Position numbers and translations under genes: made by a program | The notes under the pieces: model-generated | Told to the model about the DNA's origin: nothing | Databases searched by the model: none | Seen by the model: the letters and a program-made list of their open reading frames with translations, nothing else | Shown here: piece after piece, positions 5,098 to 64,000 of the stretch | Numbering within the stretch: the first letter of the stretch is position 1 | How the letters are laid out: each line of letters begins with the position of its first letter | Assembly: GCF_000002865.3 (NCBI RefSeq) | Contig: NW_001865085.1 | Span: 6,256-70,255, forward strand | Direction of reading: 5' to 3' | DNA length: 64,000 bases | DNA from: Monosiga brevicollis MX1 | Taxonomy: Eukaryota

Positions 5098-7758
<2,661 letters not shown>

Positions 7759-48671: not shown

Positions 48672-49333
48672 GTGGAACCAGAAAGAGCAATCGGGCGTGT
48701 TGCGCCCATTTGCCGGCTCTACCCGTCCAAATGTCTCTTTCTGCGTGCCATCCACTTGTAATTGACGTCTGGACGCTTCAAAAATCACAAAAGTTTCTCT
48801 CTTTCTCCTTTTGTCTCAAGCATTCAAGTCATTGCAAATCAGCGCACGAGTCCCTCCTCTTTGTGACAAGCAAAGGTGGAGATGTAGTGTTTGAACCATG
48901 CGTTGCGATATCATCACGCTGTAGCTGAGCACAGATCCTGCCGAACATTTGCAATGACATTGTTAATCTTGAAGGCATATTTGCGCATCAGCGTCGAATT
49001 GGTTTTTGCTGACTTCAAAGCGAGTCCGCTGATCAGGCTTGGAGGACACAACAGGATGGCAGGTATGTGTTGTCTCCCGTGTGTGAACACCATGCAGAAG
49101 ACAACGACCAATCCAGGCGCAGGGCACAACGTCATCGAGCGCGGCTGCGTCTGGACCCCACCATTCAGGTTTGTTCTTTCTTGTGAGAAGTCGTGCTTGT
49201 TGACTTCTCACAAGAAAAAATTTACAGTTAATTTGTTTCTGCGCAGAAGTGGATTGTGAATGTGCTCAGTGGCATTTTTTTGGCGTTCGCGCCTTGTTTG
49301 AAACAGTGAAAGGCTGTGCGCGTCTTGCCCGTG

Positions 49334-51584
49334 ATGACTATTCCTGCAAACATGGCGCAAGAAGAAAAGGACGTATGGATTGATCTCAATCTTTCCAAGG
49401 ATCATGCTCGAGAGCACCCACTCGAGAATGCGATTTGTGAGCTTGTTGCGAATGCCCTGGACGCCAGCGAAAAGAAGCCACAATTTCGAGCTGTAGCCGC
49501 GAACAAGATCGAGCTGGAGGACCAAGGGCCTGGTTTGTCCCTTGATGCCTGGGTCGTCGGTCGAAGCAGCAAAGCCATGGGCCATTTTGGTCTCGGCCTC
49601 AAGGATGCTATGGCAATTCTCATGCGCGAGAAGGTGCAGGTTCAGATTGAATCGAGCAAAGGCAACTACCACTTCAAAGAGAAAAGAGGCCAGACTTTAG
49701 TCGAGACCATCCATGTTCAGCAGACCCCCAGCTCGCGTGACATTGGGACCAAGATTACCCTGTCCTTGCAGAACAATGCTGCACAAGAACTTGTGACAGA
49801 GGTGCAGACCAAGTTCTTGCGACTGTCCTCAATCTACACCTTCCTGGGCGAGTACGACGGCGTGCAGGTCTTTTCGAAGTCAGATGGCAAGCCTGCTTCT
49901 CATACCTCACTGTTTGTCAAAGGCTTTGCCATGACAACGAGCAGTGCCTTTTTCTTCAGCTACAACATCCTTTCACCCACGCAAGAACAGAACGAATGCT
50001 GTAATCGTGACCACCATGTGACCTATTTCAAACCTTTTAGAGCTGCTATCATCGCTGCAGTGGAAAATCTTTGGCAGCCGAAATTGGCAGAGGCTTACAC
50101 CTCGAAATATCGCGACAACAAGGGACATTATGAACTTGCTTGGACCGAGTTCGAAGGACTGGGAATAACTGCACGGCATTCCTATGGCAAGCCTCAAGCA
50201 TCAACCAACTTGTTATACCGTGCTGCGCCGCCAGTCGCATCAGCCCCACTGCCCGCCGAAAGGTTTTTGGCACAACTTGCTAAGCTGGCGAAGCTTCCGC
50301 CTGCATCCACTTCCATCGCGCGCGCCTGCACCTCTGATCGTGCGCATCGCATCCTGGACGATAAGTCTGGACCAGTGACGCTTGTTGAAGTGAATCGTCT
50401 CATCAACCATTTCAGTCCCGAAGATGCCGTTCCACCAGACCACAGAAAAGTCGTTGATCGCCTGGTGCGGACGCTTCATGAGGTCGGTGTGCTATTTGCT
50501 GCAGGCACAAGCACGGTTTGAATGTACACTCATTAGCGATATTTTTCTTGGGCCAGGATCCTATGCTGAGCGTCGATGAGGTCTATCCCGGGGGCTCTTA
50601 TGCCAAAGGCACAAGCACGGGTGCACAATCCGATGTGGATTTGCTCGTTGTTTTGAACGACATCCCGACTGAGAACCATTCACGTTGGCTGTACATGGTG
50701 CTGACCGAATTGCGCCGCGTTGTGGAGCTGGGCCTGCAAGGTGAGCCATTGAATGTAGCCACACCTTGACTCGGGTGTGGGGCATTGATACGTGGTCACG
50801 CTGCAACTTAGGCAACTGTCAAGATGTGAAGGTGACGCGCTTTGCGGTCCAGCTGCGAGTGGACAACGTGAACGTTGACTTGCTTCCCGTCCCCGCAGCC
50901 CTATGGCGCTCGACCGACCAACGCATGAAAATCGTGAATAGCGCGGCCCTTGAAGACCGGCGTTGGCTTTCCGTGGCGTTTGCCAAAGAGCAGGTCTGTC
51001 TGACATAAGAATCCAACATCATCAGCGTGGAACAATGCATCGTTTGCCTTTTTGTAAGGAACTTCGCCTCATCAGATTGATTTCTTGTCTTTTGGTGATC
51101 AACTAGGTGAAGTACGTCAGAGAAAAAAAAGAAACTGCTGGCGTGACCGGCATCATCCGACTCATCAAGCGATGGCTGGCCACCCAAAAATGGCGTTCCA
51201 AGCCTCCCTCATTTTTGATCGAGCTCATGGTGTTGGAAGCAAAATCGCGCCTGCCCGGTAAGGCTAGCGCATTCTTGTACCGTGCCCTACTTGCACGCAC
51301 TTCGTCACGGGGAGTCCCTTGCCCTTGTTTCTGCTGCGAGGATAGAGGCGGATCACTTGGCGTTGCTCAATAAGTTTTGGGAACTCGTAAGGCACCACGA
51401 AACGCTTTGTATCATTCACGGTTCAGCGGTGCATGCTGAGATTGCACATGAGCGGCCCTTGGTGGTTGATCCAGCAAATCCGACCAATAACGTGGCAGGC
51501 AGCTTCCAATGGGACGAGTTTGTGGGCTTTGCCCGTGAGATACATGCCACTCGGCTGCGTAAGTTTGTCCGGGATCTGAGCTAA
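49334..51584 (+). CDS. GHKL (HATPase_c)-ATPase fused to an OAS/CD-NTase nucleotidyltransferase, 5 exons (49334-50482, 50557-50740, 50812-50993, 51107-51257, 51346-51584)
   Basis: N-terminal GHKL boxes ELVANALDA, EDQGPGL, GHFGLGLK and GTKI. C-terminal GGSYAKGT..SDVDLLV, NVDLLP, IIRLIKRW, PPSFLIELM and RPLVVDPANPTNNVAG. Four GT-AG introns with compatible phases (0,1,0,1). An alternative start is ATG 49352. Confidence 0.88.
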
Positions 51585-51858
51585 GAAAAAGCGCATCCCC
51601 AAATGTGTGCCACTCGCGAGTTCTTGACCATGTTTACAATTGATCTTGTCAAGTATCAGCTATGAGAAGATGAACTTGAGTCGTCAAGCCTGTCCAAAGA
51701 CGGGGCGGGTCGAGTCGCAACGATAATGTCAAGACGAGGAGGGTTCAAGTTTTGTTGTACTATTGTCGGGCGCTTCGCTTCCAGCGCCGAGTGAGACAAT
51801 ACACCTTAAGATACGCTTAACATTACAACCAACAAGAAAAAAAGTTCAAAAGACAGCC

Positions 51859-54384: not shown

Positions 54385-57300
54385 TTACAACGCGGTGTCT
54401 TCAAAGGCTCCAGAGGCCGACAAATGCTCGATCCACTGTGTCACATCGGTGGCCGCAGCATCCAAAGCCATCGAGTCGACTGGATACTCCTCGCGTTCAT
54501 TCATCGGCGCTACCTCGCCGTAGAGCGGCTCCGCCGACTCTTGCAGTTCCACGTTGGCATAAACGACATCGGACGCGCGCGGCTGGTCGTAGACGGTGGA
54601 GCTTTCGGTTCCCTGAGCGGCCGGCTCACCATGTGGGTTGGAAACCCTCAAATGGTCCCGATCGTTTCCAACCATGCTGGCCGATGTGATGGCTATTGGT
54701 GCATGGTCCTCATACGCCGGTAGCGTCTCGCGAACACCCGAACCGGGGCTCGCAGCTTTGGCGTGGTCGTGGGTAGAAGCATAGTGCATGGTGGTGACAA
54801 ACTCGGCAATGGGTTTGTCCTCGGGTGCGCGGACAAGATCATGTCGGCGGAGTCGTCCAGCAATCCAAGCAACATAAGCTAGTGCCTCGCATGACAATCG
54901 GAGCTGAACCGGTGCCTGCAGCATGGCCCGTCGTTGCTCCAGCAGTCGAATCAAGACCCGCGCCGGATCCACACGTCCCGTATCCAAACCCATACTGACG
55001 CAAACAAGGGTGTGCAGCAGGATGCCCGATAGCCCGGCCCCGACATCATCGTGCACAAGCAGTGGCCCTGCGCCGCTGGCATCCCGCTGTAGCTCGCAAC
55101 TGAGCGCAAAGCGCGCCAACGTGGGTGCTAATACTTTAGCCGGCTCGCAGTTCAGGAGCTGTAGCTGGTGTACAACATGGTTCCTCCCGTCCGCGTGCGC
55201 CACGCGAAACGCTCGAGTGCACCACGCATCTGGCTCCTTGATGTCTTGCGATAGGAGCGTGACTGTGTACCCCTCGCCCAGCAGCATCGGTTTGTGAAGC
55301 CGCTCCGGCCAATACTGGTTGCGGGCATCCTCCATCATGGTGGCCACAACCGCCACTCGGTGCCGCAGCACCGCGCACCAGAAAGAACGGATGGTGGCCG
55401 GCATGGGTGTCTGCGCACAAATGTATTGCTCCTCATCCTGATAGCCTGCCACCCAGTTGGCATTGATGTACGCCACACCATGTTCTGGCTCTGCTACCAC
55501 CAAATTATGATCGTAGGGTAGCACATCGGCATAGCGATTACGACTGGCCAACGCCGGGGCTGAGGCCACTGTGACCCTTGCGTCGGCTGCCAAATCCTCA
55601 GCTTGCCTGAACATGGCAGTCATGCCCTTGGCCGAATCTTCGCAAAGTCGTTCTACCTCCTTCTGCACGTCGGCAAATGTCCATAGCGTGCCCATCGCAA
55701 AGCCATCGGTTGCCTCCAAATTGGCCAGGTCCAAAACGTACGGAGCTGCCGCCGGTGATAAGGGATTGACCACGGGCTCCGGTTCGGGTACCGCGGGTGC
55801 CGCGAAGGTGGTGAGGGTAAGATGATGGGACCGCGGATTGCCATCTAATGACTGCAAGCGAAGATCGCGCCTCATGCCAGTGGACATGACACGTAGTCGC
55901 TCCGCGGCTGCCTCACCGCCCTTCACGGAAATTGCTGATGCCTCGTTGACCGGGGATGTGGACCTGGTCGACTCCAAAGACGCCGGCGGGCCATCTTGCA
56001 AAGGCGTCGGTAACATGGCTGCCGGCTCACCGAACGCTAGTTCACCGCGAGAATGTTCCGCACGCATGTCCACTCGTGTTTCCGTGAGCGTCACGTCCGT
56101 CGCTGTTGAATTGTACAGGTCCTGCTGCTGCAGAAACAACGCGTTTGGATGCCGGAGACCGAACGAGTCTGCGGGGCGATCCAGGGTCGACATCTGCAGA
56201 TCACCCAGGCCGTCGTGGCCCGGCTTGACGCTGACACTATCCCGGCGACGCCGCAGCAGCATGAACACGAGCAAGAGAATAAGAAAGAGCAAAAGCAACG
56301 GTACAGCAATGATGGCGATCAGCTCAGCACTGGACAGAGCGCTGTCCGACGAGCTACTGCCAAGCTGGTCACCCGCCACAGTCGTTGTCGTCGCCAAAGG
56401 CTGGGGCTCATACATGATGACAACGCCATTGGTGGACCCCGCTGCCGTGCGAGCCCGTACAAAGCACGAAAAGGCGTAGTTGGGACTGAGCGCATCCACA
56501 ACAACCTCCAGACTTGATCCGTTGTACACGATCACACGTCCAGCCAATGGCGTAATCTCGGAAGCTGCAGCACGGCGATTCAGACTGCCATCCTCCGCAG
56601 TCGTCGTCTCAAATCGCTCTGTCGCCTGCAACACGAGTTCGTACATTGTAATGACACCATTGCTGGGAGTGGGACGGCCCCACGCAAAACGTGCGGCCGT
56701 TTGGTTCAATTGCTGCGCAAGCAGAGAGCGCACCGGCGCCGGCGCGCTCTCGGGTGTTTCGACAGTGTACCACGCAGACACAAAGGCATCACCCAACAAA
56801 ACTCTGTACTCGTAGCGAGTTGCAGCTCGCACATCGGTGTCAACGTATGTGTGAGCCTGCCCGGCAAATACCGTCACAATGCTCGTGTTGCACGAGCGCG
56901 TTGCAGGGTAGTCCAGACCGCAGCTGACGGCCGCACGCCGCTGCACCTGGGCTCCAGCGGTGATACCCAAAGAATCAAAAGCAACTTCCCAATCCAGGGC
57001 CACCATGGTCGCGCCGAGAGCTCGCAGCAAGGGGCGCACATGGACATGCACCACACCTGCTGCGCTTCGTGCAGGAACGCCTTGGTCATGTACCAAGTAG
57101 GTCATCTCTGCTCGGTCGTTCACCAAGTCCTCGAGGGGACCACCCGTGTAGTACAGGCTGCCGGAGGTATCCAGTGTGAAGTGAGATGATGACGACGAGT
57201 TGAGGACAAACCGCAAAGCCGCGTTCAATCCAGCATCGGCATCCTGGGCCGTGAGCTTCAAAACAAGGTCATTCGGCTGCAGCACGTTGCTCACGTCCAC

Positions 57301-60300
57301 TTCAGCAAACGGCGTCGTGACAACGGGGGCGTGATCATTCACGTCCTTGATCCTCACTGTGACGGTCACTTCTGTGGCCAGCGGGGGAACACCCTGATCA
57401 ACCGCGCGCACTCGCAGCATGTATTCCGCCTCAGCCTCGCGATCAAAGCGTGATGTTGTTGATCGGATCAGCCCAGAATTTGCATCAATGGAGAAGAGTC
57501 CGGCCGCGTTGGCGACTAGGCTAAAACGGATGGTAGATGCTGGTGTAGCTGGCGCATCAGCGTCCGTCGCAGCAACCTGAACGCATTCGATGGGTCCCAG
57601 GTCGAGCACCAGACTGGGATTGCCAGCCACCTCAGAAATGCCGCAGCTATAACTCGTTTTCGTGAAAATGGGGACGTTGTCGTTCACGTCCGCAACTGTG
57701 ACGTACAGCAAGACGGATGAACTGAGGGATGGACTACCCCCGTCCGTCACGCTCAGCAAGAGCTCGTAGGCATTGAACGTCTCGTAATCCAAGCCGCCCG
57801 GACCCAAGCTGACTTCTCCCGTGGTGGCATCGACCACAAATGGGTGCGCTCTACCTCTGGTTGTATTGGGGGCCAAGGCAAAAGACAAAGCGGCATTAAC
57901 ACCCGTGTCGGCATCAGTTGCCTGCACCACCGCACAGCGTGAGCCCACCAGCGCGTTTTCGGTCAAAGTACATTGGTAAAGGGCAGCCTGGGTCTGGGGA
58001 GCATTGTCGTTGACATCCTGCACGTATACCGTCACGCGAGCAAAGGTGCTGAGTGGGGACGTGCCCAAGTCTGAAACCTGCACGTCCAACGCATAGACAC
58101 TTTGGCGCTCGCGATCAAGTGCGCGTGCAACCGTCAAAGTGCCATTGGCCCCCATCCTGAAGCGGCCTCCGAAATCATCCACCAGAGCAAATGTGAGACG
58201 CCCATTGTCCCCTGCGTCCGCGTCTTGCGCCACAAGGGACACACAGGCACTCTCAGTGGCCGTGTTTTCGGGCAGCTGGCACGCGTATCCGGCACTGGGA
58301 CGGTTTATAAGCTCTGGTACGTTGTCATTCTCGTCTGTCACGGTCACATCGTAGGTGGCATTGGCGCACAACACTGGCAGCCCGCCGTCGCAGGCCTCCA
58401 CAGTCACGGCAAGCCGGTCCAGCGCCTCACGATCCAAGAGGGAACGCAGAATCAACTGGCCTGTGCGCGCATCAACACGAAAGTGGTCTGCAGTGGCCGC
58501 CGCGAGGCGATACGAAATGTTGCTGTGCGCTGTGCCGGGCGCGTCGGAATCCGTGACTCTTACCACTGCGCACCTGGTGCCGAGAGCGGCACTCTCCGAC
58601 AACACGCACACCGGGTTTGGCGAAGCAAAAACGGGCGCGTTGTCATTCACATCTATGACATTAACTGCGACCGACGCGCGACCGCTGAGTCGCGGCTGGC
58701 CATGGTCCGTAGCCACCAGCGTCAAGGTCAGGAAGGCTTCGGTCTCAAAGTCGAGCAAGCGCTGCAAGGTCAAAACACCCGTTTCGTTATCCACGGAGAA
58801 CATGGTGGCACTTTCGCCCTCCAAGCTGAAGGTAAGCTGACTGGCTGGGCTACCCGCCAAGTCGCCGTCCTCAAACAACGGTGTGGGGAGGACACAGCTC
58901 GTGCCCAACAAAGCATCTTCTCGCATTGAACAACTCAGGTTTGTTCGCAGGGGGGCTGGTGCCAGGTCATTGACGTCTAGCACGGTGACCGTGACACGTG
59001 TAGTGGTTGCCAGCTGCGGCGATCCTGCGTCTCGAGCTTCGACCTCAAGCACGTAGCTATCTCGCGTCTCACGATCCAGAGTGCCGCTCAAGCGCACCTC
59101 ACCCGAGCTGGCATTGACGGTAAACGTATCGCCGAAAGAGGTAACCAGGCTGTATGATACGCGTGCCTCAGGCATCGCGTCTGCGTCGACCGCTCGAACG
59201 GCGGTGCACAGCGCGCCCACATCAGCATCCTCCTGCAGTTGGCACGAGTATGCAATGTCATCAAATACGGGTGCATTATCGTTACGATCCACGACGCGCA
59301 AGGTCACTGGAACAATCGTGTGCAAGCCAAAGCCATCGGACACGTTGACAATCGCATCGAGGGTGGCATCAATCTCGCGGTCGATCCTAGTACCCGTCGT
59401 TCGCAAGACGCCCGTCAGCGCGTCAACGGCCAACATTGGGCGCCCCTGGCCATCACGCGGCTCTTCTACCAAGGCAAAGGCGAGTTGTCCTGCAGGCCCT
59501 GCCGCATCGTCTGCGTCTTGGCAGTTTGACAATATCGCACAGGTGAGGTTGGCTTCGTGCTCAGCTACCGCACAGCTATATGGTTGCTCCACGCAAAGGG
59601 GGGCGTTGTCATTGCGGTCCCGCAGGCGCACCGTCAGCACGGCCCGCGCACTCGGTGCATCTGAGTTGCTGACATTACGCGGGTTGCTCGCAATAACAGT
59701 CAGGTTATACGTCGCTTGTGCTTCGCGATCCAGTTGTTTCATGCCTGCGTCATTGCCACCCTGGGTTTGACGCGTAGTGTTCGTGTAAACGATGCCCGAG
59801 TCGGGCTCGATCCAAAAAAGCCCGTCAAATGTCGAGTCGAGAGAGTACTCAATCACCGCATGCCATCCCACGTCATCATCGGTTGCAGCAACGGCGGGAC
59901 AAGCTTGCTGTTGTCCAACAGGCTCCCGCCCGTTTGCCTCCCAGAGAGAACACGATGGCACGGCTGAAAACTTTGGACCGTTATCATTGGCATCGTCCAC
60001 GGTCAAGATCAGGGTGGCATATGCCCAGCGGGTCGGCATGCCCAAATCATGAACGCTCACGTTGAGCGTGTACTCGGCCTGCGTCTCACGGTCAAGCGTC
60101 CGTGTCAAACGAACTTTGCCTGACTCGGCATCCACAACAGCACCAGCAGCGCTAGAGGCAGCGTCCGAGACAAGCCCGTAGCGCAGCGCATTGTCAGGTG
60201 CGTTGGCATCGGCATCTGTTGCCGAGAGGCTTGCGCAGGAGGCGTTGACCTCGTTTTCCGTCACTGTGCAATCAAACACGTGGCGTGTAAATTCCGGCGC

Positions 60301-63300
60301 ATTATCATTCACGGGCGTTATCGTAACGAACAACAGAGCGGTGCTTGATAAGGCTGGAACGCCGGCGTCTGTCACTGTCACGCTCACCGCCACGCGATTG
60401 GTGGTTTCAAAGTCCAGCACGGCTCCCGATTGTAGTGTGATGAAACCCATCGTGTCGGTTGCAAAGCGAGTATCATTGACCAGCCACGTGAGACGCGCAT
60501 TCTCCCCCACGTCCAAATCAGTGGCCTCCACCTGCACGCAGCTTTGAACTGGCAGGCTTCCGCCAGTGCCATCCGTTTCGGCCAGGGCGCAGGAGAATGG
60601 GCCCGATGCAAGTATGGGCGCGTTGTCGTTCACATCTTCGACGAGCACCTGTAGGGCGTGGTCTGTCCAACGCGGCGGCGACCCATGGTCGCGGGCCCGC
60701 ACGACCAATTCGTAGGCATCGCGTGCTTCACGGTCCAATGGCGATGCCACAAACAGCTGACCGGTTTGCGCATCGAGAGTAAAGCTCTCTGCTCCATTGC
60801 CTGGCAGCAGACTGTAGTGCAGCAAAGCGTTGGATCCCAGGTCGGCATCAGTCGCGACCACCTGGAAAACGGGGGTTGGCCCGACGGTGGCCGCCTCCGA
60901 CACATGGACGCTGGGGCTTGATGTAAAAACTGGTGCGTGCGTGTTGGAGTCTAGGATGGAAATAAGAAGGTTGGTTAGGCTGGAGCGTGGGGGTGAGCCG
61001 CGGTCCGTGGCCGTTACGTTCAGACGATAAACAGCTCGCTCGTCGCGGTTGAGCACGCCCGTTGCCGCAACAGTGACGGCACCCAGGCGGTCAATGGTAA
61101 AGTCGGTTGCACCGGTCCCGGTGAGCGTGTAATCGATGGCAGCTCGCGGGGTACCGGGCTCGTCGCCATCCGAGGCGTTGACCAGCACGCAGAGCGTATT
61201 GGCCGTGGCATTCTCAAAGACACTGCAGATATAGCTAGGCTGCCCGAAAGCGGGAGCCAAGTCATTGACATCCTCGACGACCAGCGACACGGCCGTGCGG
61301 TTGATCTGGTGCACGCCATCGGTAACAGCAACATCGAAGGTGGTGACTGGGGTCGATTCAAAGTCATAGGATGCGGTAGTAGCAAGCGAGCCATTGGGCG
61401 CCACGCTGACTCCGCTCAGCGCAACAAAGGTCAGAGCATCTCCATCAGCATCGCTGGCGACCAACGTGCACGGAAGCCACGTGTGTACCGGTCGATTCTC
61501 CTGCACCGTACAGGCGCCCACGAGCGTCAATACGGGGGCATTATCGTTCTCGTTCACCACTTCAATCTCAATGGTCACGTTGCTGCGTTGTGCCGGCACA
61601 CCACCGTCGGTGGCTGTCAGGACTAGACGTAAGCGGTGGATGGCTTCGTAGTCAAGCACTGTCTGCAGACGAAGGTCACCAGTGACAACATCAACTGCGA
61701 CCAGGCTTTCCCCATTCGCGAGAGCCCAGCGTCCCGTGGTTGCGGAGAGCACCTCAGTGGTCACCGAGAACCGCACGCGCGAATTGGCCGAGCCAGCAGC
61801 ATCGGCATCGGTTGCCATGACTTGCAGAGCGATTGGCGCGGCCAGTGCGTTGTTTTCCGACACCAGCAAGCTCGTAGAGTTGACGACGAGAACGGGCGCG
61901 TTATCATTCAGATCCAACACCTGCACACGCACCGGTACAGTGCTGTACAAAGGCGGTGTACCGGCATCCGTTGCGCGCACAGTGAACTCGAAGCTCTGTT
62001 GCGTCTCGTAATCAAGGCTTGCATTCACGCGCAGTCGACCCGTGGTGGCATCAATGGAAAAAGCTGTCAAGTTGTCGGGCAGCAAGCTGTATGACACGGT
62101 GCCATTGGCGCCCGCGTCAGGATCAAACGCCACCAGCTGCTCGATGGTTTCTCCAATCGCCTCATTCTCGGGCACAGCCACGTCGTAGAAGGACGCTTCA
62201 AAGCTAGGGATACGATCGTTTATATCCAAGACTTCGATCTGAATGGTTGAGGTGCTCGATAGAATCTTGCCATCAGTCGAGGGCACCGTGTTTTGGGCGG
62301 TCACAACCAAGGTATGATTTGCTGTTGCCTCGCGATCTAGCCCTTGTGCCAGCAGCAGGCCTGTGCTTGCATTCAGGGCGAAGAGTTTGCTTGCGGGGCT
62401 CGCCGTCAGGCTGAAGGTGGTCGCCTGGAATGCCGGAGAGACATCGGCGTCGGTGGCGACCACGTACCCAACGGGCTGCCAGTCAGTGCCCCCGCGCTCA
62501 AGGATTTGCCACGCGTACTCTTGTTGAGTAAAGATGGGGCTTGCATCGTTCGCATCTTGGATCAGAATGGTCAGCATGACATCCACATAACTGGTGGATA
62601 GGCTTAGCTCTGTGGCGCGCACGAGAAGTTGCACCACGTTGGGCCCAAGCTCAAAATCCAAAGCAGCGCGGATGAAAATGCGCCCACTCTCGGGATCAAT
62701 CGCAAAGCGAGGGTCTGTGCTATTGCGGAGGCTAAAGCGTAGTGTGCCCGCTGGGCCGACGTCAGCGTCAATCACGGGCACGGTGGTGACCGTGTCATTG
62801 ACGCTCAACGACTCCGAAACGTTGGCAGTGCTTGAAAACCCGGCAGCCAAGACCGGTGCATTATCGTTCACGTCCTTGACAAAAATTCGTACTTGCAGGG
62901 CTGGCCCAAACAGCAAGGTTCCATTCTGTGCCCGCTCTGCCGCCACAATCCAGAGGCCGAGATATTGTCCGGCCTCTGCATCCAGGGGCGCCAGAAGGTC
63001 CAACGAGCCGGACGTTGCATTGAGAGTGATGTTCTCCGTGCCTGGGGTGGCCTGAAGAATGGCGTACACAATCTCGCCTTTGCCATCCGGGTCATAAGCT
63101 TGCACCTGGCTCAGGTGTACGGGTGCAAGATTCTCCGATACGTTGACTTGAATCACGCTGGGCGCAAAGTAGGGGCGAACATCATTCAGATCCTCAATCT
63201 CAATATGGACCATGAGGCGTGACTCGTGGAATGGCGTTGCATTGTCTCGCGCTATGATTTCCAAGGTATAGCTCGAGACGTTAAGGCGCTCAAAGTCCAG

Positions 63301-64000
63301 ATCATCACGGACAACTAGCGTCGCCGTCGTCGCGGAGAATGCAAAGTGCTGAGCCGCCACATCCATGCCCTCGATTGCATACGTGATGCGACCTGCAGCA
63401 CCCGCATCGGGATCCACTGCGGTAGCGTTGATCAGCACCTGCCCCACAGCAACGGATTCGTTCAAGCGCAGGCTGACTGAGCCAAGGCCCCCAGCCGGCG
63501 CGTCAAGAAAGTGCAAAAACCGAGGGGCATTGTCGTTGACATCCTGGACAGTGATGACGACGCTCGTGGTGGTGATGCGCGGGGGGCTGGCCCCGTCTTG
63601 CGCCAGTACGGAGACGGAATATTGCGCGACACGTTCACGATCCAGGCCCCTGGTCGGCCGGAGCACCCCAGTCTCGTCGATGACCCAGTCAACGACAGTG
63701 TCGGGCTGTATCTTGTAGCTCACCCGTCCGTGGGGGCCTGGGTCCGCATCGGTCGCGGCGACGGCCAAGGCAACCTGCGTCGGATCGGCGGCCTCGTTCA
63801 CCTGAAAGTCGTAAAGAGATTGCGCAAAGACGGGCGCGAAATCATTTCGGCACCACAAGTACGGGGTTGTGGCCTCGCCGACGAGGGCGGGGTTGAAGCC
63901 GTTGACAAAGTGCGTCAAATTGATGCCAGCCGCAGCATCACGGAGGGGTAGGTTGATAGGGTTGGGAAACATGAGGGGGGAAGAGCGCAAGCCCACCCGC
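54385..64000 (-). CDS. Giant cadherin (5'-partial): ~21 cadherin repeats, FN3, TM, pseudo-PTP domain; lefftyrin-like C-terminal architecture
   Basis: Uninterrupted 3203-codon ORF with about 21 DxNDxxP-type linkers and LDRE/LDYE motifs, FN3 (WGRPTPSNGVITMYEL), TM IAIIAVPLLLLFLILLLVFMLL + RRRR, and PTP motifs NRYADVLPYD, YINANWV and YICAQTP. Confidence 0.95.
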   Translation of the reverse strand, partial: RVGLRSSPLMFPNPINLPLRDAAAGINLTHFVNGFNPALVGEATTPYLWCRNDFAPVFAQSLYDFQVNEAADPTQVALAVAATDADPGPHGRVSYKIQPDTVVDWVIDETGVLRPTRGLDRERVAQYSVSVLAQDGASPPRITTTSVVITVQDVNDNAPRFLHFLDAPAGGLGSVSLRLNESVAVGQVLINATAVDPDAGAAGRITYAIEGMDVAAQHFAFSATTATLVVRDDLDFERLNVSSYTLEIIARDNATPFHESRLMVHIEIEDLNDVRPYFAPSVIQVNVSENLAPVHLSQVQAYDPDGKGEIVYAILQATPGTENITLNATSGSLDLLAPLDAEAGQYLGLWIVAAERAQNGTLLFGPALQVRIFVKDVNDNAPVLAAGFSSTANVSESLSVNDTVTTVPVIDADVGPAGTLRFSLRNSTDPRFAIDPESGRIFIRAALDFELGPNVVQLLVRATELSLSTSYVDVMLTILIQDANDASPIFTQQEYAWQILERGGTDWQPVGYVVATDADVSPAFQATTFSLTASPASKLFALNASTGLLLAQGLDREATANHTLVVTAQNTVPSTDGKILSSTSTIQIEVLDINDRIPSFEASFYDVAVPENEAIGETIEQLVAFDPDAGANGTVSYSLLPDNLTAFSIDATTGRLRVNASLDYETQQSFEFTVRATDAGTPPLYSTVPVRVQVLDLNDNAPVLVVNSTSLLVSENNALAAPIALQVMATDADAAGSANSRVRFSVTTEVLSATTGRWALANGESLVAVDVVTGDLRLQTVLDYEAIHRLRLVLTATDGGVPAQRSNVTIEIEVVNENDNAPVLTLVGACTVQENRPVHTWLPCTLVASDADGDALTFVALSGVSVAPNGSLATTASYDFESTPVTTFDVAVTDGVHQINRTAVSLVVEDVNDLAPAFGQPSYICSVFENATANTLCVLVNASDGDEPGTPRAAIDYTLTGTGATDFTIDRLGAVTVAATGVLNRDERAVYRLNVTATDRGSPPRSSLTNLLISILDSNTHAPVFTSSPSVHVSEAATVGPTPVFQVVATDADLGSNALLHYSLLPGNGAESFTLDAQTGQLFVASPLDREARDAYELVVRARDHGSPPRWTDHALQVLVEDVNDNAPILASGPFSCALAETDGTGGSLPVQSCVQVEATDLDVGENARLTWLVNDTRFATDTMGFITLQSGAVLDFETTNRVAVSVTVTDAGVPALSSTALLFVTITPVNDNAPEFTRHVFDCTVTENEVNASCASLSATDADANAPDNALRYGLVSDAASSAAGAVVDAESGKVRLTRTLDRETQAEYTLNVSVHDLGMPTRWAYATLILTVDDANDNGPKFSAVPSCSLWEANGREPVGQQQACPAVAATDDDVGWHAVIEYSLDSTFDGLFWIEPDSGIVYTNTTRQTQGGNDAGMKQLDREAQATYNLTVIASNPRNVSNSDAPSARAVLTVRLRDRNDNAPLCVEQPYSCAVAEHEANLTCAILSNCQDADDAAGPAGQLAFALVEEPRDGQGRPMLAVDALTGVLRTTGTRIDREIDATLDAIVNVSDGFGLHTIVPVTLRVVDRNDNAPVFDDIAYSCQLQEDADVGALCTAVRAVDADAMPEARVSYSLVTSFGDTFTVNASSGEVRLSGTLDRETRDSYVLEVEARDAGSPQLATTTRVTVTVLDVNDLAPAPLRTNLSCSMREDALLGTSCVLPTPLFEDGDLAGSPASQLTFSLEGESATMFSVDNETGVLTLQRLLDFETEAFLTLTLVATDHGQPRLSGRASVAVNVIDVNDNAPVFASPNPVCVLSESAALGTRCAVVRVTDSDAPGTAHSNISYRLAAATADHFRVDARTGQLILRSLLDREALDRLAVTVEACDGGLPVLCANATYDVTVTDENDNVPELINRPSAGYACQLPENTATESACVSLVAQDADAGDNGRLTFALVDDFGGRFRMGANGTLTVARALDRERQSVYALDVQVSDLGTSPLSTFARVTVYVQDVNDNAPQTQAALYQCTLTENALVGSRCAVVQATDADTGVNAALSFALAPNTTRGRAHPFVVDATTGEVSLGPGGLDYETFNAYELLLSVTDGGSPSLSSSVLLYVTVADVNDNVPIFTKTSYSCGISEVAGNPSLVLDLGPIECVQVAATDADAPATPASTIRFSLVANAAGLFSIDANSGLIRSTTSRFDREAEAEYMLRVRAVDQGVPPLATEVTVTVRIKDVNDHAPVVTTPFAEVDVSNVLQPNDLVLKLTAQDADAGLNAALRFVLNSSSSSHFTLDTSGSLYYTGGPLEDLVNDRAEMTYLVHDQGVPARSAAGVVHVHVRPLLRALGATMVALDWEVAFDSLGITAGAQVQRRAAVSCGLDYPATRSCNTSIVTVFAGQAHTYVDTDVRAATRYEYRVLLGDAFVSAWYTVETPESAPAPVRSLLAQQLNQTAARFAWGRPTPSNGVITMYELVLQATERFETTTAEDGSLNRRAAASEITPLAGRVIVYNGSSLEVVVDALSPNYAFSCFVRARTAAGSTNGVVIMYEPQPLATTTTVAGDQLGSSSSDSALSSAELIAIIAVPLLLLFLILLLVFMLLRRRRDSVSVKPGHDGLGDLQMSTLDRPADSFGLRHPNALFLQQQDLYNSTATDVTLTETRVDMRAEHSRGELAFGEPAAMLPTPLQDGPPASLESTRSTSPVNEASAISVKGGEAAAERLRVMSTGMRRDLRLQSLDGNPRSHHLTLTTFAAPAVPEPEPVVNPLSPAAAPYVLDLANLEATDGFAMGTLWTFADVQKEVERLCEDSAKGMTAMFRQAEDLAADARVTVASAPALASRNRYADVLPYDHNLVVAEPEHGVAYINANWVAGYQDEEQYICAQTPMPATIRSFWCAVLRHRVAVVATMMEDARNQYWPERLHKPMLLGEGYTVTLLSQDIKEPDAWCTRAFRVAHADGRNHVVHQLQLLNCEPAKVLAPTLARFALSCELQRDASGAGPLLVHDDVGAGLSGILLHTLVCVSMGLDTGRVDPARVLIRLLEQRRAMLQAPVQLRLSCEALAYVAWIAGRLRRHDLVRAPEDKPIAEFVTTMHYASTHDHAKAASPGSGVRETLPAYEDHAPIAITSASMVGNDRDHLRVSNPHGEPAAQGTESSTVYDQPRASDVVYANVELQESAEPLYGEVAPMNEREEYPVDSMALDAAATDVTQWIEHLSASGAFEDTAL

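What the first reader, a model, noticed from the sequence alone, without database searches (positions are those of the whole stretch)
49334..50482. The ATPase half looks prokaryote-derived and is intron-free, while the OAS half is intron-rich
Seen: 1149 nt with no intron, against four introns in the next 1.1 kb and introns every 100-300 nt in most neighbouring genes. From memory, the sequence (DLNLSK..ELVANALDA..GHFGLGLKDAMA..LFVKG..FFFSYNI..NRD) resembles an uncharacterised bacterial/archaeal 'ATP-binding protein' family (DLNIEK..ANALDE..GKFGVGLKDALA..FSYNI) more than Hsp90, MutL, MORC or sacsin. Inference: a horizontally acquired ATPase was grafted onto a resident OAS gene.
Basis: partly seen in the sequence, partly recalled or inferred. 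Interest (0 to 1): 0.72.

Follow-up and report, generated by a model that had tools for sequence, protein, structure and literature searches.

The report
Choanoflagellate OAS with prokaryote-type ATPase clamp
In choanoflagellates, the closest single-celled relatives of animals, an enzyme like the antiviral signal-maker OAS is fused to an unstudied ATP-driven clamp of a family found mostly in bacteria, archaea and phages; the clamp likely switches the enzyme on, which would be a new way to control an immune signal.

Summary
Exon 49334-50482 has no intron and four GT-AG introns follow; one transcript-like contig joins all five exons into a 634-aa protein (Monosiga brevicollis MONBRDRAFT_39312). 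Residues 14-283 are a complete GHKL ATPase of an uncharacterised family (Pfam MPN635_N, phrog_6077) whose bacterial, archaeal and phage members end in an HExxH domain; it is not Hsp90, MutL or MORC. The interpretation needs correcting. The fusion is old: at least seven choanoflagellates of both main branches carry it, codon use of the halves does not differ, and the fusion point lies inside exon 1, not at an intron. The nearest ATPase relatives are not prokaryotic but a 40-sequence group (support 100/99, 0 of 29 named prokaryotes inside; includes Telonema) in which the same ATPase carries swapped tails: OAS-like, other nucleotidyltransferases, PIN-like, BMT5-like. Both active sites are intact and an ATP-bound dimer is predicted (0.74 against 0.00). 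Best reading: an ATP-gated clamp that likely controls an oligoadenylate signal in protist immunity, probably of ancient prokaryotic or viral origin; the tree could not be rooted. The domain rows sit in one paper's supplement, undiscussed in its text.

The parts
49334..50482 (+). Coding exon 1, residues 1-383: ATPase, linker and first helices of the OAS unit; no intron
49373..50182 (+). GHKL ATPase module (Bergerat domain plus transducer-like domain), residues 14-283, MPN635_N / phrog_6077 family
49382..49390 (+). D17-L18-N19 strap, on the two-fold axis of the predicted dimer; D 91, L 92, N 93 of 106 rows
49439..49597 (+). GHKL motifs: E36, N40 (N box), D63-G65-G67 (G1), G83-G86-G88 (G2)
   Evidence: roles of the residues from general knowledge of GHKL ATPases
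50006..50008 (+). R225, conserved in 99 of 106 rows; candidate switch arginine (inferred)
50183..50365 (+). Low-confidence, Pro/Ala-rich linker, residues 284-344; the fusion point lies here
50366..50482 (+). N-terminal helices of the OAS unit, residues 345-383, inside exon 1
50483..50556 (+). Intron 1, 74 nt, phase 0; same place inferred in 9 of 9 read-through relatives
50557..50740 (+). Exon 2: G396-S397 loop, D409, D411
50741..50811 (+). Intron 2, 71 nt, phase 1; same place inferred in P0161/P0168; unspliced in the main contig of run X3
50812..50993 (+). Exon 3: third catalytic aspartate D467 (50877-50879)
50994..51106 (+). Intron 3, 113 nt, phase 0; same place inferred in P0161/P0168
51107..51257 (+). 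Exon 4, OAS1_C lobe
51258..51345 (+). Intron 4, 88 nt, phase 1
51346..51584 (+). Exon 5 with the D597-P598-x-N600-x-x-N603 motif of OAS1_C and the stop codon

Best explanation
This gene makes one spliced protein in which an intact GHKL ATPase, predicted to dimerise on ATP, likely gates an intact OAS-like nucleotidyltransferase that would make an oligoadenylate or cyclic-nucleotide alarm signal during infection. Shown: the spliced fusion, the family of the ATPase, both sets of catalytic residues, conservation across choanoflagellates, and a wider group in which the same ATPase carries swapped tails. Predicted: the GHKL fold with its transducer domain, and a dimer held by the N-terminal DLN strap. 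Inferred: a trigger (foreign nucleic acid or a viral protein) closes the clamp, which brings two OAS units together or frees them from the linker, and ATP hydrolysis resets it, doing in cis what HORMA/Trip13 do for bacterial CdnC and dsRNA does for animal OAS1. Origin, inferred: the ATPase entered eukaryotes long ago from a prokaryote or virus as intron-free DNA, lost its HExxH tail, and was re-used with several RNA- or nucleotide-acting tails; the OAS-like tail was fixed before loricate and craspedid choanoflagellates split.
For: Spliced fusion. Full fusions in S. infusionum and H. gracilis and HATPase plus OAS1_C rows for A. spectabilis, M. brevicollis, S. infusionum, S. urceolata, S. punica, S. 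dolichothecata in supplementary file 2 of PMC10732462, where all 9 HATPase rows are choanoflagellate. E36 104, N40 105, D63 101, K90 105, R225 99 of 106 rows; G-S and three aspartates kept in the four fusions aligned. Fold: Z 10-11 to GRP94, MutL, TRAP1, T6 topoisomerase and MORC2 alike, rmsd 3.9-6.8, 219-246 aligned, 11-17% identity. Dimer score 0.74, best of 3 controls 0.00; mark reached by 21 of 30 solved pairs and 0 of 23 single chains (eukaryotes 17 of 29 and 0 of 30); runs agree in at least 78% of contacts, pLDDT at least 76; a pass may be from memory of solved GHKL dimers. Effector group of 40 rows on one side of a branch, 100/99, with 0 of 29 named prokaryotes inside. Of the best 80 of 397 prokaryotic loci, 73 end in HExxH and 0 carry a nucleotidyltransferase motif. 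Defence genes beside some prokaryotic members: Zorya, BREX, type II R-M, ShosTA.
Against: No activity, trigger, product or receiver was measured. The full-length model has pTM 0.51, so no fixed contact between the halves is predicted. Defence enrichment near prokaryotic members is weak: 28 of 219 near genes against 8 of 119 in arbitrary stretches (p 0.098) and 15 of 150 distal genes (p 0.51); p 0.023 only with a stricter cut-off chosen afterwards; no conserved partner gene. The tree is unrooted, and with phage outgroups two long phage rows fell inside the effector group. Only 30 clusters were looked up; most effector-group members are unnamed metagenome or Logan records. 12 of 40 effector proteins would be missed by the scan pattern, so a prokaryotic fusion is not excluded. 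BMT5-like and TENT-like tails also fit housekeeping RNA work.
Confidence: 0.5

Rival explanations
1. Origin rival: a prokaryotic ATPase gene was transferred straight into a choanoflagellate ancestor and grafted onto a resident OAS gene; the missing introns are the trace.
For: Family is widespread in bacteria, archaea, plasmids and phages; ATPase exon intron-free in 9 of 9 read-through relatives while introns 1-3 of the OAS half are shared; stand-alone OAS-like proteins exist in some choanoflagellates; HATPase rows only in choanoflagellates in that table.
Against: Closest ATPases are the effector-fused group with Telonema and another EukProt entry, not prokaryotes; the Telonema-type and TENT-type ATPases group with the choanoflagellate ones; no compositional trace.
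Confidence: 0.2
2. Origin rival: the ATPase is an old eukaryotic lineage, sister to the prokaryotic family, inherited vertically and lost in most groups, as reported for Tiamat-like GHKL proteins.
For: One well-supported group, long branches, members in Opisthokonta and Telonemia; eukaryote-typical tails such as BMT5-like and MTPAP-like; Tiamat precedent (abstract and section 21 of 10.64898/2026.09.30.754977).
Against: Only 306 hits among 1.84 billion representatives; no animal, fungal or plant name among the 30 clusters looked up; no introns in the ATPase in intron-rich hosts.
Confidence: 0.2
3. Origin rival: ATPase and nucleotidyltransferase arrived together as one bacterial or viral module (CBASS clade C-like), and introns were gained later only in the 3' half.
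For: Fusion point is inside exon 1; NTase scores 66 bits on CBASS_cyclase_a against 35 on OAS1_C; 19 other ATPase-NTase fusions exist; in the NTase tree the choanoflagellate rows lie nearer two bacterial enzymes than the other fusions (long branches).
Against: 0 of 80 kept prokaryotic loci and 0 of 16 viral loci show the fusion; the OAS unit's best structural matches are animal OAS (TM 0.87 against 0.82); the choanoflagellate NTases are separated from the other 19 (97 SH-aLRT).
Confidence: 0.15
4. Function rival: a housekeeping RNA or ribonucleoprotein remodelling enzyme, in which the clamp holds a substrate and the tail adds nucleotides; no immune role.
For: Kept across choanoflagellates for a long time; transcribed in ordinary cultures as far as the contigs show; sister fusions carry TENT-like and rRNA-methyltransferase-like tails; RNase L is confined to jawed vertebrates (passages of PMC10400998).
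Against: The tail is of the OAS/CdnC kind, not TENT; rapid divergence (34-38% identity to the other two full fusions) and tail swapping are typical of conflict systems (general knowledge).
Confidence: 0.2

Closest known systems
Animal OAS1-3 / OASL (OAS superfamily of CD-NTases)
   Same: Fold (best Foldseek hits are OAS1, E 9e-12), G-S loop, three aspartates, OAS1_C above its cut-off (35.4 against 19.9 bits).
   Different: About 20% identity; carries a 283-residue GHKL module in front; no RNase L partner outside jawed vertebrates (PMC10400998, passages); dsRNA activation untested.
OASc group of PMC10400998 (choanoflagellate-only OAS-related proteins)
   Same: Choanoflagellate-only distribution (passages).
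   Different: Identity with this family could not be checked: figure not held and supplement unreadable; the text has no 'ATPase' or 'HATPase'.
CBASS clade C cyclase CdnC with HORMA and Trip13
   Same: Related NTase (E 4.6e-7 to CdnC; NF041116 66 bits); an ATPase controls the enzyme's state (recalled).
   Different: There the ATPase is a separate AAA+ protein that switches the enzyme off; here a GHKL module is fused in cis. Score far below the NF041116 cut-off of 200.
MPN635_N (PF25856) / phrog_6077 'ATP-binding protein' family
   Same: The ATPase module: Atlas feature score 0.98, PF25856 precomputed on P0001 and P0022, phrog_6077 E 3e-17, 263 aligned columns.
   Different: Prokaryotic members end in an HExxH domain and some have two or three ATPase repeats; here the tail is an OAS-like enzyme. 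No function is known; one passing mention of MPN635 in the library (search listing).
Tiamat / NO VEIN / sacsin and MORC (GHKL defence ATPases)
   Same: GHKL ATPase with swappable effector tails, present in prokaryotes and eukaryotes (abstract and section 21 of the Tiamat preprint).
   Different: No DUF3684 or PD-(D/E)xK domain; 634 aa; no Tiamat match listed for P0002 among the 25 of 27 PADLOC families shown; sacsin profile only 16 bits against a cut-off of 50; sacsin SR1 Z 6.4.

Membership tests
GHKL ATPase superfamily | Bergerat fold with N, G1 and G2 boxes | tested here: met
   E36, N40, D63-G65-G67, G83-G86-G88; Z up to 11.2, rmsd 4.9, 240 aligned
GHKL ATPase superfamily | Transducer domain behind the ATP-binding domain | tested here: met
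   Alignments to MutL, GRP94 and topoisomerases span model residues 17-290
GHKL ATPase superfamily | ATP hydrolysis and ATP-dependent dimerisation | not testable with these tools
   Only a predicted dimer, 0.74 against 0.00
MPN635_N / phrog_6077 family | Sequence homology over the whole ATPase module | tested here: met
   the local Pfam copy lacks PF25856, so its cut-off was not applied to this protein
MPN635_N / phrog_6077 family (prokaryotic architecture) | C-terminal HExxH domain | tested here: not met
   Absent from P0002; present in 73 of 80 genome loci
Hsp90, MutL, MORC, topoisomerase B | Orthology-level sequence similarity and family-specific C-terminal domains | tested here: not met
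   11-17% identity to all; no PDB sequence hit to any of them at E up to 10; the C-terminus is OAS-like
Tiamat / sacsin | DUF3684 core and PD-(D/E)xK or J/HEPN tail | tested here: not met
   Pfam, NCBIfam and PADLOC scans of P0002
OAS superfamily | Tandem NTase and OAS1_C unit | tested here: met
   NTP_transf_2 27.6 bits (cut-off 21) and OAS1_C 35.4 (19.9); fold
OAS superfamily | Catalytic G-S loop and three aspartates | tested here: met
   G396, S397, D409, D411, D467
OAS superfamily | Phylogenetic place inside eukaryotic OAS and not among bacterial clade C | tested here: inconclusive
   No animal or stand-alone choanoflagellate OAS sequence was on hand; tree files of PMC10732462 unreadable; one search has only two bacterial rows
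Classical OAS-RNase L pathway | dsRNA-activated 2'-5' oligoadenylate synthesis and an RNase L receiver | not testable with these tools
   No assay; no whole genome held
Horizontally acquired gene | Nesting inside prokaryotic or viral clades on a rooted tree | tested here: inconclusive
   Unrooted separation 100/99; phage outgroup not monophyletic
Horizontally acquired gene | Foreign codon use | tested here: not met
   GC3s 0.56 against 0.60, p 0.30; synonymous codon test p 0.88; expected to be erased if the transfer is old

The most novel reading that the evidence does not exclude
An undescribed eukaryotic immune platform: a prokaryote- or virus-derived GHKL clamp that protists have re-armed at least four times (OAS-like, a second CD-NTase-like lineage, TENT-like, PIN-like, BMT5-like tails), whose OAS form is the ancestral choanoflagellate OAS and makes a second messenger under ATP-clamp control with no dsRNA and no RNase L, possibly the missing endogenous ligand for M. 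brevicollis STING or for an unknown receiver.
Probability: 0.3. Interest if true: 0.85.

Novelty: new variant of a known kind. Interest (0 to 1): 0.64.

Why it matters
How OAS-like enzymes were switched on, and what they signalled to, before dsRNA sensing and RNase L arose is open. This is the only OAS-type entry for M. brevicollis in the table of PMC10732462, in a species with gene knockouts and a working STING whose endogenous trigger is unknown (passages of PMC8592570). A fused ATP clamp gives a concrete, testable switch. It also opens an uncharacterised GHKL family that spans bacteria, archaea, phages and protists.

Tried and rejected
Mis-prediction of two neighbouring genes as one: rejected by the bridging contig and by orthologues. 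Contaminant contig: rejected, spliceosomal introns and eukaryotic neighbours. Recent transfer: rejected. Exon shuffling at intron 1: rejected, the OAS unit begins inside exon 1. Viral carriers of the effector group: three scans of viral contigs gave 16 loci (12 HExxH, none with the NTase motif), 14 loci at 21-37% identity over the ATPase only (tails not classified) and nothing for P0002 alone; absence is not shown. Rooting with two phage ATPases and L087 failed. A conserved operon partner in prokaryotes: none found. Hosts of the intron-less NTase fusions: L003 (35% GC) has neighbours with no Pfam or NCBIfam match; unresolved. Word-based homologue searches were insensitive (1, 3 and 7 hits) and covered limited length ranges. 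No whole genome is held, so paralogues and receivers were not searched. Earlier-finding look-ups returned nothing. Rows dropped: 7 of 151 proteins too short for the first tree; genome loci thinned from 80 to 29 at 60% identity; P0001, P0033, P0061, P0068, P0072, P0083, P0116 and P0137 of the clade were left out of the tree, whose effector rows were chosen from the tree; P0057 was mislabelled PIN-like.

Full report
What is there. The frame 49334-50482 is 1149 nt without an intron, followed by four GT..AG introns (74, 71, 113, 88 nt) and a stop at 51584; joined, the exons give 634 residues. Four coded runs were laid on the region: all four joints appear, and one contig of run X7 runs from 49291 to 51648 across all five exons. 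The tool only guesses that these runs are RNA, but precise loss of four GT..AG segments is what splicing gives. The identical protein is on record as MONBRDRAFT_39312 of Monosiga brevicollis. The fusion is therefore real.

Anatomy. Residues 14-283 fold with pLDDT 89 and pTM 0.87 from a 106-row alignment into a full GHKL module. It is about equally far from GRP94 (Z 11.2, rmsd 4.9, 240 aligned), MutL (10.9, 3.9, 219), TRAP1 (10.8), T6 topoisomerase (10.6) and MORC2 (10.3), at 11-17% identity, so it belongs to none of them. E36, N40, D63, K90 and R225 are kept in 104, 105, 101, 105 and 99 of 106 rows. Residues 284-344 are a low-confidence linker. The OAS unit starts at residue 345-347 by structural matches, so its first 39 residues lie in exon 1: the fusion point is inside the exon. 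The unit has G396-S397, D409, D411, D467 and the OAS1_C motif; its best fold matches are animal OAS1, while by sequence it scores higher on a CBASS cyclase model (66 bits, cut-off 200) than on OAS1_C (35 bits, cut-off 19.9).

Is the intron contrast meaningful? In this gene alone only mildly: P 0.025 for four random introns to avoid exon 1, 0.09 to avoid the ATPase (post hoc). The window has a 3204-aa and a 323-aa uninterrupted frame (cadherin-like and cathepsin-B-like by eye) and transcript pieces of 583-724 nt, beside a gene with short exons. Across species it is more telling. Nine of nine read-through relatives examined (about six independent lineages, hosts unnamed) align through the ATPase with no insertion over 23 residues and then show a valine and lose similarity exactly where intron 1 begins; P0161 and P0168 read through two in-frame inserts and break at a third point, at the places of introns 1, 2 and 3. 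This is inferred from protein records; their DNA was not seen. So an intron-free ATPase and shared OAS introns are old features. Codon use of the halves does not differ (GC3s 0.56 and 0.60, p 0.30; codon test p 0.88).

How old and how wide. A search of 1.84 billion representatives gave 306 hits; the best 150 were listed. The top ones are Hartaetosiga balthica, Salpingoeca infusionum (full fusion), unnamed Logan records of the same build, and further down H. gracilis (full fusion). Supplementary file 2 of PMC10732462 has 9 HATPase rows, all in choanoflagellates: Acanthoeca spectabilis, M. brevicollis, S. infusionum, S. urceolata, S. punica, S. dolichothecata. With H. gracilis that is seven species, and A. 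spectabilis is a loricate while the rest are craspedids (classification from my own knowledge), so the fusion predates that split.

Where the ATPase sits. In a tree of 172 domains the protein falls in a clade of 39-44 rows (SH-aLRT 91-94) that holds 19 nucleotidyltransferase fusions, 8 PIN-like fusions (Pfam PIN hits only at E 0.01-0.25 in 6 of the 8), 2 BMT5-like fusions and no HExxH protein. Rebuilt with 29 named prokaryotes, the 40 effector rows are one side of a branch at 100/99 with none of the 29 inside (rows chosen from the first tree, long branches). Named members outside choanoflagellates are Telonema subtile (BMT5-like) and one more EukProt entry (NTase); of 30 clusters looked up most have no name. 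The NTase tails split into the choanoflagellate OAS type (3 rows), a second lineage (19 rows, 97), a TENT-like pair and one stray, so tails were swapped repeatedly. A scan of one genome per prokaryotic species found 397 relatives; of the best 80, ranked against an ATPase-NTase fusion, 73 have HExxH and none has the NTase motif. The pattern would miss 12 of 40 effector proteins. Rooting on phage ATPases failed. Transfer from prokaryotes or viruses is thus the likeliest origin by distribution (about 0.6 for an old entry followed by shuffling, 0.2 for a direct choanoflagellate graft, 0.2 for vertical descent), but it is not shown.

Neighbourhoods. Of 30 dissimilar prokaryotic and viral loci, 19 have a PADLOC match within 3.5 kb (28 of 219 genes), among them Zorya, type II restriction-modification and ShosTA; BREX lies further off in one. 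Controls temper this: 15 of 150 distal genes (p 0.51) and 8 of 119 genes in arbitrary stretches of eight of the genomes (p 0.098; p 0.023 only at a stricter cut-off chosen afterwards). No partner gene is conserved. A defence role for the prokaryotic members is a lead, not a result.

Mechanism. Two copies of the ATPase with ATP and Mg give a predicted dimer: score 0.74, best of three controls 0.00; the mark was reached by 21 of 30 solved pairs and 0 of 23 single chains (eukaryotes 17 of 29 and 0 of 30); runs agree in at least 78% of contacts, pLDDT at least 76; solved GHKL dimers exist, so it may be from memory. The interface is the conserved D17-L18-N19 strap and residues 70-78. The full-length model has pTM 0.51, so the halves have no predicted fixed contact. 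I commit to an ATP-gated clamp that, on a trigger, closes and activates the tethered OAS units, giving a free oligoadenylate or cyclic nucleotide, with hydrolysis as reset (0.5). Trigger, product and receiver are inferred; RNase L is reported only in jawed vertebrates (passages of PMC10400998). The main functional rival is housekeeping RNA work (0.2).

What is in print. PMC10732462: I read section 7 part 1, passages and parts of supplementary file 2; the proteins are in its table with HATPase rows, but the main text has 'ATPase' only in one reference title; its tree files could not be read. PMC10400998: passages; it names a choanoflagellate-only OASc group whose figure and supplement I could not see and which may show this architecture. 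PMC6307210: passages; models a M. brevicollis OAS, no 'ATPase'. PMC8592570: passages. Searches for MPN635 (1 passing hit, listing only), GHKL + nucleotidyltransferase + choanoflagellates (0), choanoflagellate + OAS + HSP90-like + fused (0), the locus tag (0), GHKL + CD-NTase + eukaryotes (1) and (2, the same study) found no description of the fusion or of the effector group; subscription journals are largely outside the library.

Verdict. Observation confirmed; interpretation partly supported. New variant of a known kind; interest 0.64.

Noticed in passing
window 49165-49304: A 138-nt GT..AG joint upstream of the start codon in one low-depth contig of run X7 (possible 5' UTR intron), while run X3 reads through it unspliced.
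   Followed up: no
window 50741-50811: Intron 2 is not removed in the main contig of run X3, and introns 3 and 4 appear both spliced and unspliced there; retention of the 71-nt intron would shift the frame and drop the third aspartate. Possible regulated retention.
   Followed up: no
window 49352-49354: The second ATG (M7) aligns with the start of most relatives and may be the true start.
   Followed up: no
window 54385-63999 (-): A 3204-aa uninterrupted frame with many cadherin-like repeats, fibronectin-like segment, membrane helix and a tyrosine-phosphatase-like tail that seems to lack the catalytic cysteine motif (read by eye; names recalled).
   Followed up: no
window 35082: T in the window, G in contigs of three runs: assembly error or allele.
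   Followed up: no
P0003 (H. balthica P015223) and P015224: ATPase and OAS appear as consecutive separate ORFs in H. balthica; P0003 loses similarity near residue 240, suggesting a frameshifted assembly or a split gene.
   Followed up: partly
P0014, P0017-P0019, P0021, P0028, P0045 and P0010, P0034, P0054: Family members with three or two tandem GHKL modules before the HExxH tail, close to phrog_6077 (E 1e-104 for P0014); a sacsin-like repeat layout in an unrelated family.
   Followed up: partly
L003:1737-3344: Intron-less ATPase-NTase gene of the second NTase lineage on a 35% GC, gene-sparse metagenome contig with unclassified neighbours; a close cluster has a EukProt member.
   Followed up: partly
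L142:1171-7951 and L019:17834-20598: Prokaryotic family members directly behind Zorya genes and near BREX genes.
   Followed up: partly
L017, L110, L169, L175, L176: An SMC/LmuB-like ATPase gene lies within 3.5 kb of the prokaryotic member in 5 of 30 loci; not tested against chance.
   Followed up: no
window 5884-6089: Assembly gap of 206 N.
   Followed up: no
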